A program made the position numbers. Shown here piece by piece: positions 21,001 through 24,000 of a stretch of DNA of 64,000 nucleotides. How positions within the stretch are numbered: the stretch's first letter is position 1; the number at the start of each line of letters is the position of its first letter. The stretch lies in assembly GCF_902652985.1 (NCBI RefSeq), contig NC_047020.1, positions 38,068,001 to 38,132,000 of the forward strand, read 5' to 3'. Source of the stretch: Pecten maximus (taxonomy: Eukaryota).

Positions 21001-24000
21001 TCAGAATGCAACGACAGGTTAGTGTTGTAAGTGGTCAAGGTAAAGAGTTTGACACGTTCCTGTAACCCAAAACGAAAAATTAAATGCAGGGTCCGATCCC
21101 TACATCAATGATAAGAATTTAGATAAATGTCATCGGGGACATATTTTCTCTCTTGCGTGATATGAACATCCAACACTTGTTTGCTTATTGCACTTTGATT
21201 TGTATTCACTTCTTCTGTTCTTGCTTTGCGAAAGCGACAGAATTTCGATTAAAGTAAAATTTGGGTGGCGTGTGTCCAGGATACATCAAAAGACGCTCTA
21301 ACTCGTGGAACATTTGGTCTTGCTCTCCTTGCAGAATAGCATTTCATAAAATTGTTTCTTCAGTTGGTATATGCCCTTAATTTTGTCAATTTTAACGATT
21401 TGTTCATAATGATGTTATCAAAAAAACAGTACAAACACGGCACTTTAGGAATTTTATACAAAAAGACAACTGTCTTGGCAAAGTATCATTTAGCCTGAGT
21501 TTCCTTTGGCCCTGACACCATGTCTGGTACCAGAGGAAACTCGGGCTAGGTATCATTGTCTAGATTCAAATGGAGTTGCATTATTTTTTGTATTACAGCT
21601 TTTAACTCGATCTTGAAGACCTACCCGTTTAAACCTGGCGATGCCGTGATGTTTACAGACAACTCATTCGGAGCATTACAGAACACGTGCCGCTATTTAT
21701 CGACTGATCAGAAAGGTTATTACACAGCACAGTCCTTATTTGGGTCCATGGCGTTTAACGAAGTATTATCCATACAAAGAGTTGTACAGATTGTAAACCA
21801 GAAAACACGTAGAGAGATAATATCTAATGTGTTTATGCTTATTGATAATTGTTTTAATGCCATAAGATCGATGAAAGCTAGAAACACTAGAACTGAAAGT
21901 CGTGAAGGCTAACCGATACCCCTGCCAACCATCAATTCAACACTTGTATAAAACAATGGTGAGGAGTATGGATGTCATAGACACTTGTATATCATTGAAT
22001 CTATGAAATTAAGAAAAGTTGACCAATCAAAAAGGAATAAAAATGAACACGATGAATACAATTCCGTTTAGGTCTCCTTCACTGAGACCAAATCGACAAC
22101 CAAGTATTATCCAAGGGCCGATGAACAGAACCTTGTAAAACGTGCTCAGGTCACTATTACAACCAAAATATCCACACAAAAAATAATAATGTACATCTAA
22201 GTAATTGTCAGAGCAAAATGTTTCTTACAGACATATGGTTAAGTATAACTTTATGGTCCTGTGGTGATAGGGGTGTATCAATAATACACGTTTTTATCAA
22301 CTTATTATTTAATGTTCATGGAATTGGATTTTTTCAAGGTATGAAAGCACACACTTTGGAAATATCATTTCCTATCGACAATGAAGACGATTTGGTTGAG
22401 GAGCATCGCAAATTCTTAAAAGATCATCCAGATATTAAACTGGTTGTCGTAGGTAAGCAAACTTACTTGTAATGGCAAGGTTTGTGGCCGGGTGGTCGAT
22501 ACTGTAACCTCATCTAGAGTTTACACAGCTAGGAAATTTGACTGAATGTCCAACTGGTAGAGTGTGCACAGCAATCGAGAAATTACACAGCTAGGCAATT
22601 TGACTGAAGGTCTAACTGTTGGAGAGTGCACAGCAATCGAGAGTTTACACAGCTAGGAAACTTGACTAAAATTGAAACTTTTAGAGAGTGCACATCAACT
22701 TTGGTACTGATCTACTAGTTACACGGACTTTATAGTACTTGTACTTTACTATGTGTGCTGTAGAGTTATAAGGTTGAAGTGTTTTTTCAACCTTGCAGAT
22801 CATATCACCAGTCGGACCGCTCTGATGTTTCCCGTCCAAAAGATGGTCGACATGTGTAAGAAGATTGGCGTGATGGTGCTAGTAGATGGAGCCAATGCGC
22901 CTGGGCAGGTATCTTTGGACATGAAGGCTTTGGATCCAGACTTTTATTCCGGTATGTGCATCTAGAGATGCTATTTGTACATTTACCATCATAAACATCA
23001 TATTATGAACAGTTTCGCCTTTTTAGTAGGACAATGATAATTTAACCCGTGCAAGAGCGGAGAAAGAATGAGGCCTGCTGTAACTCACCGTTTGTTGACT
23101 AAAAGTGGACATCTTGCAAATTTAGGAATTTTTCCGTGTCTTTTATTTAGGTGACATTAAAAAGACTGAAATAGATCTGCTGTCCCCTTGCAACACTTGG
23201 AGTCTTTGTTTTGTCCGTTAATCGTGTCTTTTCTGTCTTTCTGTACTTTGTTTTCCTTAAATAATAGAGGTCTCCTTGATAATTGTCCTCACATAACACT
23301 GGCTATTGCGAGGACGTTAAACCCCTTATTAACAAAACAAACTAAACTAAGCTCTGTCTGTCTTAATGTTTAAAACGAAATAAAAAATGTTTACAATAAA
23401 TCCTCTGACACTTAAGTTAATGCTTTCAAGAAATCTCATTGCAGGGAAGTTAATGCTTTCAAGAAATCTCACTGCAGGAAAGTTAATGCTTTCAAGAAAT
23501 CTCATTGAAGGGAAGTTAATGCTTTCAAGACATCTCATTGCAGGGAAGTTAATGCTTCCAAGAAATCTCATTGAAGGGAAGTTAATGCTATCAAGAAATC
23601 TCATTGAAGGGAAGTTAATGCTTTCAAGAAATCTCACTGCAGGAAAGTTAATGCTTTCAAGACATCTCATTGCAGGGAAGTTAATGATTTCAACACATCT
23701 CATTGCAGGAAACTTCCACAAATGGGCATTCACGCCTAGAGGGTGTGGCTTCCTGTACGTCAAGAAGGCTCATCGTCACCTCATAAAACCACTGGTGACA
23801 TCACACAACTACCAGCAAGGTCTTACAAACGAGTTCTTTAAGCAAGGATACCGGGATGACACGCCGTACATAACATTGAAACATGCTATTCAGTTCTGTA
23901 AAGACATCGGTGGAATGGTAACTTATCGATTACTGATTACTTGAAGGGAATGTCAAAACCGTATACTGACACCAGTTCAGTTCCAAGTACCAATGCTACA

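What the first reader, a model, noticed from the sequence alone, without database searches (positions are those of the whole stretch)
23414..23710. Nine in-frame tandem splice acceptors directly before the PLP-lysine motif
Seen: the 33-bp unit has a TTAAT branch-like motif and CAG (6 copies) or AAG (3 copies), is a multiple of 3 and has no stop. Each upstream acceptor would add 11 aa (GKLMLSRNLIA), up to 88 aa, just before GNFHKW. Established: the spliceosome tends to use the first AG after a branch point. Inference: a ladder of isoforms is possible that escape NMD but probably disrupt the active site, acting as a VNTR-encoded rheostat or a step toward inactivation.
Basis: partly seen in the sequence, partly recalled or inferred. 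Interest (0 to 1): 0.65.

Follow-up and report, generated by a model that had tools for sequence, protein, structure and literature searches.

The report
Splice-acceptor minisatellite in a scallop intron
A 33-base stretch holding the end of an intron of a scallop enzyme gene has been copied nine times in a row, so the gene carries eight spare look-alike splice sites; this is a known kind of repeat, and nothing shows that the spares are used.

Summary
At 23414-23710 a 33-bp unit is repeated 9.0 times. Each unit has TTAAT and an in-frame CAG (6) or AAG (3). The frame is open, and the last copy supplies the acceptor (23708|23709) of the exon that starts GNFHKW.

The window is king scallop (Pecten maximus), not human. 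The gene is LOC117329706, two fused Egt2-like class-V PLP domains.

- The annotated protein and four bivalve relatives join DFY[S/C/T/A] directly to GNFHKW.
- No database protein carries the repeat peptide next to this enzyme.
- Being in frame and open is about a 1-in-7 chance event, inherited by all copies.
- Two other arrays in the same gene copy a splice donor and the stop codon, with periods that are not multiples of 3.

This matches the "mirage" minisatellites of amphioxus and the human F7 intron-7 VNTR, where the duplicated sites stay silent. An insertion would split a core beta-strand four residues before the PLP lysine.

Most likely this is a near-neutral boundary minisatellite. No transcript data were available.

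The parts
12899..25901 (+). Host gene: Pecten maximus LOC117329706, 17 coding exons, 807 aa. It encodes two fused class-V aminotransferase (Egt2-like) domains. Stop TAG at 25899-25901.
   Evidence: P0003 is 100% identical to the exon. Every exon maps by exact matches, and all 16 introns resolve with GT..AG. Pfam Aminotran_5 E 6.8e-54, two stretches.
22799..22951 (+). Upstream exon (residues 580-630, ...DPDFYS, plus the first base of the G631 codon). Donor CCG|gtatgt.
22952..23708 (+). Intron of 757 nt, phase 1. The array fills its last 295 nt.
   Evidence: only solution: last exon base 22951, first exon base 23709.
23381..23413 (+). Degenerate tenth (outermost) repeat copy, without any AG.
   Evidence: 18 of 33 bases match in register; background 99th percentile 15, maximum 20 in 20,000 samples.
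23414..23710 (+). Array of 33 bp x 9. Each unit has TTAAT (positions 4-8), an internal AAG (positions 15-17, absent in unit 9) and CAG or AAG at positions 29-31. The last two bases of the array are the first two of the exon.
23681..23685 (+). TTAAT of the last unit, the candidate branch site for the authentic acceptor. Its second A lies 24 nt before the acceptor G. This is inferred, not mapped.
   Evidence: Sequence. It lies inside the 26-nt AG-free zone. That it fits the branch consensus is from my recall.
23707..23708 (+). Authentic acceptor AG, as used by the annotated protein.
23709..23917 (+). Downstream exon (G631-M700). The PLP-lysine codon AAA is at 23720-23722 (K635).
   Evidence: Egt2 NCHKW aligned; Lys invariant in 30 of 30.
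15911..16269 (+). Sister array in the same gene: units of about 53 bp copy the last ~35 nt of exon 5 and its GT donor. The authentic junction is 15946|15947, with six pseudo-copies downstream.
   Evidence: pseudo-exon matches.
25877..26710 (+). Sister array in the same gene: 71-bp units copy the last 12-15 codons and the TAG stop into the 3' flank.

Best explanation
This is a boundary minisatellite of the 'mirage' type. A 33-bp piece was duplicated in tandem by slippage or unequal exchange and then partly homogenised. The piece comprised the last 31 nt of the intron (branch-like TTAAT, weak pyrimidine tract, CAG) and the first 2 nt of the exon.

The exon-adjacent copy remains the working acceptor. 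The eight upstream in-frame AGs and the 17 out-of-frame AGs are pseudo-sites that are silent or used only at noise level. The array has no adaptive role, and its in-frame, open state is a chance property of one unit inherited by all copies.

Shown: the anatomy, the gene model, the lack of any insertion in relatives, the sister arrays and the chance estimates. Inferred: the way the array arose, and the silence of the pseudo-sites, which rests on published parallels and on the annotated model rather than on transcripts of this gene.
For: - Array anatomy, with edge copies more diverged than inner ones: 29 and 18 of 33 at the edges, 31-33 of 33 inside. PMC3087553 describes this pattern for mirage clusters.
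- The annotated protein P0003 uses 23708|23709.
- 9 of 9 GNFHKW junctions in five bivalve proteins have no insertion.
- Residues 1-110 of the read-through peptide P0008 found nothing at E<=0.01 among 8000 scored candidates of 295-2000 aa.
- The exhaustive search of 1.84 billion representatives gave 812 hits. Of the 150 listed, 18 have their best stretch in the repeat part. None of the 18 has a GNxHKW-like motif, and 13 of the 18 carry their own 11-residue periodic repeat.
- Two more arrays in the same gene copy a donor site and the stop codon, with periods of 53 and 71, which are not multiples of 3.
- In frame and open has a joint chance of about 0.13-0.17.
[quoted passage not shown] The 5' pseudo-sites of the human F7 intron-7 VNTR 'normally remain silent' (abstract of PMC1557585).
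- The last unit alone lacks the internal AG, which gives the used acceptor a 26-nt AG-free zone against 12 nt upstream. 13 of the gene's 16 real acceptors have 17 nt or more.
Against: - No transcript evidence was available. P0003 is a predicted RefSeq model. Both protein collections show only one representative per cluster, so an isoform of the same gene could be hidden.
- By sequence, the five upstream CAG copies are practically as good as the real acceptor, which is itself weak: 12 of 20 pyrimidines, longest run 4.
- One real acceptor of this gene is an AAG (first exon base 22339), so the three AAG copies are not excluded either.
- The internal AG lies about 10 nt after the putative branch A. 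PMC1431707 says AGs closer than 12-15 nt to the branch site can be bypassed. The AG-free-zone difference may therefore not protect the real site, and it may simply reflect edge divergence.
- Only 2 nt (at most 7) of exon lie inside the unit, less than in the described mirages.
Confidence: 0.72

Rival explanations
1. Splicing-yield modifier. The decoy modules compete for branch-site and U2AF recognition. A sizeable share of transcripts then uses upstream in-frame AGs (dead domain 2) or the out-of-frame AGs (early stop, decay), and allele length sets the output of correct mRNA.
For: - The upstream modules are near-identical to the one used, and the authentic acceptor is weak.
- There are 26 AGs, of which 17 are out of frame. 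With the phase-1 junction, I worked out by hand from the sequence that the position-17 AGs run into TAA after 7 codons.
- An intronic VNTR that affects splicing is in print for human ABCA7 (PMC5954066; I saw only the title and the start of the abstract in a search listing).
Against: - The published cases of duplicated splice sites in tandem arrays report silence of the copies.
- No isoform with the peptide turned up in the protein collections.
- Domain 2 is 81-87% identical among four scallop genera in this exon, so wasteful splicing should be selected against.
Confidence: 0.17
2. True coding variation. The 11-residue units are alternative coding segments that give functional protein isoforms with a variable insert.
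For: The frame is open for 109 codons upstream of the exon, the longest of the gene's 16 acceptors; the others have 4-72. The period is a multiple of 3.
Against: - The insert would fall inside a core strand four residues before the PLP lysine.
- No relative has an insert there: 9 of 9 junctions in five bivalve proteins. In 30 of 30 aligned homologues the Lys and its neighbour Trp are invariant.
- The open frame is what a chance-open unit gives once it is copied.
- A second reading frame, on the minus strand, is equally open.
- The units keep the intron-end signals rather than any protein-like pattern.
Confidence: 0.04
3. Artefact or foreign element. The array is an assembly error, or part of a transposable element that happened to land at the intron end.
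For: The window is very rich in tandem arrays, 19 by my merging of 29 TRF rows, three of them of 1.9-4.5 kb. A DDE_Tnp_4 transposase remnant lies at 51035-51484.
Against: - The units differ from one another by shared, patterned substitutions: units 2 and 7 are identical, as are units 4 and 8. A collapsed or stuttered assembly would not give that.
- The unit occurs nowhere else in the 64 kb.
- The last copy is the working splice site of a conserved exon.
- No inverted repeats flank it.
Confidence: 0.04

Closest known systems
[quoted passage not shown] Sources: passages of PMC3087553 and one passage of PMC3902484. The original Adh3 paper (PMC117041) is not held.
   Same: - Tandem units in the reported size range: Adh3 10-72 bp, globins about 150-160 bp.
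- The units copy a splice signal. BflGb6 copies the 3' end of an intron with its acceptor, as here.
- Many units keep AG or GT.
- Edge units are excluded from homogenisation.
- Both 5' and 3' boundaries are affected in the same genome. Here it is the same gene: 15911-16269 and 23414-23710.
   Different: - Here only 2 (at most 7) exon bases belong to the unit, so the copies contain almost no pseudo-exon. The two sister arrays do contain exon sequence.
- The host is a bivalve mollusc, not a cephalochordate.
- Normal splicing and length polymorphism were shown there by RT-PCR and haplotypes. Here neither could be tested.
Human F7 intron 7 37-bp VNTR, whose first unit spans the exon 7 donor (PMC1557585, abstract read).
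   Same: A minisatellite makes a row of identical splice sites next to the authentic one. The copies are functional in principle but do not compete, and the exon-adjacent site is chosen.
   Different: That array duplicates 5' sites and the choice was shown by 50 constructs. Here 3' sites are duplicated, where choice depends on branch-site selection and AG scanning, and nothing has been tested. The direct counterpart in this gene is the donor array at 15911-16269.
Intronic VNTRs that modulate splicing, for example ABCA7 (PMC5954066; only title and start of abstract seen in a search listing).
   Same: A tandem array in an intron, with repeat length tied to the splicing outcome. This is the model for the rheostat reading.
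   Different: There an effect on splicing is reported. Here there is none to report, and the array here contains the acceptor itself.
Egt2 / LolT branch of class-V (fold type I) PLP enzymes. This concerns the host protein only.
   Same: - Pfam Aminotran_5.
- The exon peptide matches Egt2 at NCHKW, E 4.2e-08.
- The model of relative P0007 superposes on Egt2 and LolT with TM 0.86-0.90.
   Different: - Two such domains are fused in scallops, at 755-807 aa.
- Domain 2 has Asn where 30 of 30 aligned homologues have His.
- The substrate is unknown.

Membership tests
Mirage-type boundary minisatellite | Head-to-tail repeats of minisatellite unit size | tested here: met
   33 bp x 9.0, 92% matches, no indels; 0 of 100 shuffles match the unit.
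Mirage-type boundary minisatellite | The unit spans an exon-intron boundary, so the splice signal is duplicated | tested here: met
   The last unit ends 2 nt inside the exon, and the AG at unit positions 30-31 is present in 9 of 9 units. The met status is marginal: the next 33 exon bases match the unit at only 11 of 33, which is background. The sister arrays at 15911-16269 and 25877-26710 clearly contain exon sequence.
Mirage-type boundary minisatellite | Edge units escape homogenisation and are the most diverged | tested here: met
   Inner units share 31-33 of 33 bases, the last unit 29 of 33 and the outermost degenerate copy 18 of 33.
Mirage-type boundary minisatellite | The authentic site is still used and the mRNA is normal | not testable with these tools
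   Only a predicted RefSeq protein is at hand. It uses 23708|23709. No transcript data.
Mirage-type boundary minisatellite | Length differs between haplotypes or individuals | not testable with these tools
   One sequence only; no other scallop DNA is in reach.
Functional alternative 3' splice sites (a regulated isoform ladder) | Isoforms that use the alternative sites exist | tested here: not met
   No protein joins the repeat peptide to the enzyme. One search found none at E<=0.01. In one search, 18 of the 150 listed hits lie in the repeat part and none has GNxHKW. This is weak as a test: both collections are clustered, and no RNA data were seen.
Functional alternative 3' splice sites (a regulated isoform ladder) | The alternative segment is tolerated or conserved in relatives | tested here: not met
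   9 of 9 junctions in five bivalve proteins lack any insert. The site lies in a core strand.
Class-V aminotransferase / Egt2-like PLP enzyme (host protein) | Aminotran_5 domain with the Schiff-base lysine in the (G)NxHKW motif | tested here: met
   PF00266. The Lys is invariant in 30 of 30 aligned homologues. Egt2 NCHKW aligns. Fold TM 0.86-0.90 to Egt2 and LolT for relative P0007.
Class-V aminotransferase / Egt2-like PLP enzyme (host protein) | Full set of invariant active-site residues in the domain that holds the array | tested here: not met
   Domain 2 has DGANAPGQ where 30 of 30 homologues have His (H202 of P0007), in all four scallop proteins. Activity of domain 2 is therefore open.

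The most novel reading that the evidence does not exclude
Scallops, like amphioxus, make 'mirage' minisatellites that copy splice sites, with three in this one gene. The 33-nt in-frame array is a length-variable allele series in which upstream modules are used in proportion to copy number. That would yield a ladder of decay-resistant isoforms with a dead second domain. It would also provide a natural 3'-splice-site counterpart to the F7 donor array, for asking how the spliceosome chooses among identical branch-tract-AG modules.
Probability: 0.12. Interest if true: 0.55.

Novelty: new member of a known kind. Interest (0 to 1): 0.3.

Why it matters
As it stands this is an ordinary, probably near-neutral repeat, and annotators should not read it as coding.

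Its modest value is twofold. First, it extends boundary-copying minisatellites, described in the papers I found for amphioxus and for one human gene, to a mollusc, with three examples in one gene. My search for minisatellite + splice site + bivalve found 0 papers.

Second, nine nearly identical branch-tract-AG modules in frame form a ready-made natural construct for testing how a 3' splice site is picked among equals. It is the mirror image of the F7 donor experiments. If the copies were used, individuals with different repeat numbers would differ in the output of a PLP enzyme.

Tried and rejected
- The original Adh3 mirage paper (PMC117041) is not held. It is known to me only through citations in PMC3087553 and PMC3902484.
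- Searching the repeat peptide gave only unrelated proteins with their own 11-residue repeats, so the matches come from periodicity, not homology.
- P0090, a 181-aa fragment whose match starts upstream of GNLHKW, has no such repeat.
- Rfam found no family in 12000-27500.
- There are no inverted repeats in 22400-24500.
- The RNA fold of 23381-23760 is no better than shuffles: z -1.14, and 14 of 100 shuffles fold at least as well.
- The minus-strand frame that is open across the array (23347-23769, 140 codons) is the same chance effect and was rejected as a gene.
- The end of the paralogous intron in domain 1 (…ggtaattattcacag) shows no convincing likeness to the unit. I compared these by eye only.
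- The exon start does not continue the repeat: 11 of 33 matches.
- I considered whether three boundary arrays in one gene is itself an excess. I make no such claim: the gene has an exon edge about every 400 bp, so arrays of 300-800 bp often meet one.
- An isoform carrying the insert was not modelled and the spliced model was not searched as a whole, because both need a joined sequence. Exons were searched one by one, and the repeat plus exon as one contiguous genomic translation.
Additional files 4-6 of PMC3087553 (unit alignments and trees of mirages) could refine the comparison.
- No DNA of other scallops was in reach.

Full report
**What the window is.** The two exons flanking the finding were translated and searched separately.
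- The upstream exon matches Pfam Aminotran_5.
- The downstream exon matches the C-S lyase Egt2 at its NCHKW motif.
- A search for longer proteins found a 100% match to the NCBI protein 'LOC117329706 isoform X2 [Pecten maximus]' (P0003, 807 aa). Further relatives are at 81-87% in three other scallop genera and 61% in a pearl oyster.

P0003 maps exon by exon, by exact matches, to the + strand from 12899 to 25898. It has 17 coding exons, and all 16 introns resolve uniquely with GT..AG. The contig is therefore king scallop, not human. It has 36% G+C and no N.

The protein is two class-V PLP domains in tandem. Each is 43% identical to the single-domain oyster protein P0007.

I did not build or search a joined spliced model. 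Exons were searched one at a time, and the named NCBI protein served as the reference.

**The observation.** It holds in every point.
- 23414-23709 is a 33-bp tandem array of 9.0 copies, 92% matches, no indels.
- Every unit keeps AAGTTAATG.
- Six units end in CAG and three in AAG, at a spacing that keeps the reading frame.
- The frame into the exon has no stop.
- Each upstream site would add 11 residues (GKLMLSRNLIA with variants), up to 88.
- The last copy supplies the acceptor 23708|23709 of the exon that starts GNFHKW. Its lysine (codon 23720-23722) is invariant in 30 of 30 aligned homologues.

The unit occurs nowhere else in the window, and 0 of 100 shuffles matched it.

- The array has 26 AGs, not nine. 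Nine sit at unit position 3 and eight at position 17, and both sets are out of frame.
- The last unit alone has lost the position-17 AG. The acceptor in use therefore has a 26-nt AG-free zone, while the eight upstream copies have 12 nt. Among the gene's 16 real acceptors, 13 have 17 nt or more.
- A degenerate tenth copy without any AG lies at 23381-23413. It matches 18 of 33 bases; the background 99th percentile is 15.
- Edge units are the most diverged (29 and 18 of 33 against 31-33 inside). Some inner units are identical in pairs: 2 = 7 and 4 = 8. This is the usual signature of an array turned over by unequal exchange.

**Is 'in frame and open' meaningful?** No.
- By my merging of the 29 TRF rows, 6 of the window's 19 arrays have periods that are multiples of 3.
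- A given frame is open in 38% of shuffled units and in 4899 of 9756 33-mers from this gene's introns.
- The joint chance is thus about one in seven, and once true for one unit it is inherited by all.
- A minus-strand frame is just as open.

**Context inside the gene.** Two more arrays in the same gene copy functional boundaries.
- 15911-16269 repeats the last ~35 nt of exon 5 with its GT donor. There is one authentic junction and six pseudo-copies, spaced about 53 bp apart.
- 25877-26710 repeats the last 12-15 codons with the TAG stop at a 71-bp period.
- Neither period is a multiple of 3.

The locus therefore tends to make local tandem duplications regardless of exon edges, and the annotated model simply uses the copy that is continuous with the exon.

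**Evidence on use of the copies.** There are no transcript data in these tools.
- Indirect evidence is negative. The annotated protein uses the last acceptor. All nine GNFHKW junctions in five bivalve proteins lack an insert.
- The contiguous translation of repeat plus exon (P0008) found no protein with the repeat part at E<=0.01 among 8000 scored candidates.
- The exhaustive search of 1.84 billion representatives returned 812 hits. Of the 150 listed, 18 lie in the repeat part. None of the 18 has a GNxHKW-like motif, and 13 have their own 11-residue periodic repeats, so these matches come from periodicity.
- Limits: both collections show one representative per cluster, and isoform X1 could not be inspected.

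**Could the copies work?** By sequence, yes.
- The five upstream CAG modules have 11-12 pyrimidines in the 20 nt before NAG, against 12 for the real site. They have the same TTAAT 24 nt upstream and the same CAG|G.
- One real acceptor of this gene is even an AAG.
- The position-17 AG lies about 10 nt after the putative branch A, so it may be skipped. The AG-free-zone advantage of the last unit is then only suggestive, and may be plain edge divergence.
- Which module wins depends on branch-site and U2AF choice, which sequence alone cannot settle.

**Consequence of an insert.** A model of P0007 built from a 30-sequence alignment has mean pLDDT 94.7. It superposes on Egt2 and LolT at TM 0.86-0.90. 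The junction falls between T220 and G221, inside strand 218-222. That strand leads directly into the FHKW turn, four residues before the lysine. I did not model the insert-bearing form, because that needs a joined sequence.

**Comparison with what is known.**
[quoted passage not shown] One example comprises the 3' end of an intron and the start of the next exon. Many units keep AG/GT, RT-PCR indicates regular splicing, length differs between haplotypes, and edge units escape homogenisation.
- The abstract of PMC1557585 describes the human F7 intron-7 37-bp VNTR, whose identical 5' pseudo-sites stay silent.
- The scallop array fits this kind in unit size, boundary position and edge divergence. 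Normal splicing and polymorphism could not be tested. Only 2-7 exon bases belong to the unit.
- A search for minisatellite + splice site + bivalve found 0 papers. That library lacks most subscription journals, and supplements were closed.

**Other checks.**
- No Rfam family in the gene.
- No inverted repeat near the array.
- No unusual RNA fold, z -1.14.

**Verdict.** A ladder is anatomically possible and would probably harm domain 2. Nothing shows that it occurs, and the rheostat idea has no support.

The best reading (0.72) is a near-neutral boundary minisatellite of the mirage type, with silent or noise-level pseudo-acceptors. A quantitative effect of repeat number on correct splicing remains a live rival (0.17).

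Novelty: a new member of a known kind. Interest: 0.3.

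Noticed in passing
window 15911-16269 (+): An array of about 53 bp copies the end of exon 5 (…HPNVRIAVI) together with its GT donor. The authentic junction is 15946|15947. Pseudo-copies lie at 15999, 16053, 16109, 16160, 16213 and 16262. Their donor hexamers are GTAGGT (authentic plus two copies), GTAGAA, GTTAAT and GTAGAT (twice). It is a scallop counterpart of the human F7 intron-7 donor VNTR.
   Followed up: partly
window 25877-26710 (+): A 71-bp array starts inside the last exon. The last 12-15 codons and the TAG stop are repeated almost exactly three more times (25934-25969, 26005-26040, 26076-26111). 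More diverged copies follow in the 3' flank.
   Followed up: partly
window 12899-25901; proteins P0003-P0006: The scallop gene is a fusion of two Egt2-like domains, conserved in four pectinid genera, while the pearl oyster protein has one domain. Domain 2 has Asn (DGANAPGQ) where 30 of 30 aligned homologues have an invariant His, in all four scallops. Domain 2 may therefore have altered or lost chemistry.
   Followed up: partly
host protein family (P0003, P0007): The closest solved folds are the ergothioneine C-S lyase Egt2 and LolT (TM 0.86-0.90). Passages of PMC8433421 say no OvoB-like lyase was found in metazoans except Hydrozoa. This bivalve family could be a candidate for the missing animal sulfoxide lyase of ovothiol synthesis. 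This is a lead only.
   Followed up: no
window 1-4075, 4858-6724, 58466-62989: Three long satellite arrays: 35 bp x 116.5, 43 bp x 42.8 (also read as 130 bp x 14.3) and 29 bp x 156. Together they make up about 16% of the window.
   Followed up: no
window 22521-22698 (+): A 62-bp x 2.9 array in the intron just upstream of the one in question. It lies wholly inside the intron.
   Followed up: no
window 51035-51484 (-) and 54012-54593 (-): An open frame with a DDE_Tnp_4 (PIF/Harbinger-type) transposase match, E 2.5e-18, probably a transposon remnant. The neighbouring 193-aa frame has no Pfam match.
   Followed up: partly
window 30875-31147 (-): A 90-aa open frame with a weak TPR_12 match (28.2 bits, below the 30.1 cut-off). 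It may be an exon of a minus-strand gene downstream of the enzyme gene.
   Followed up: no
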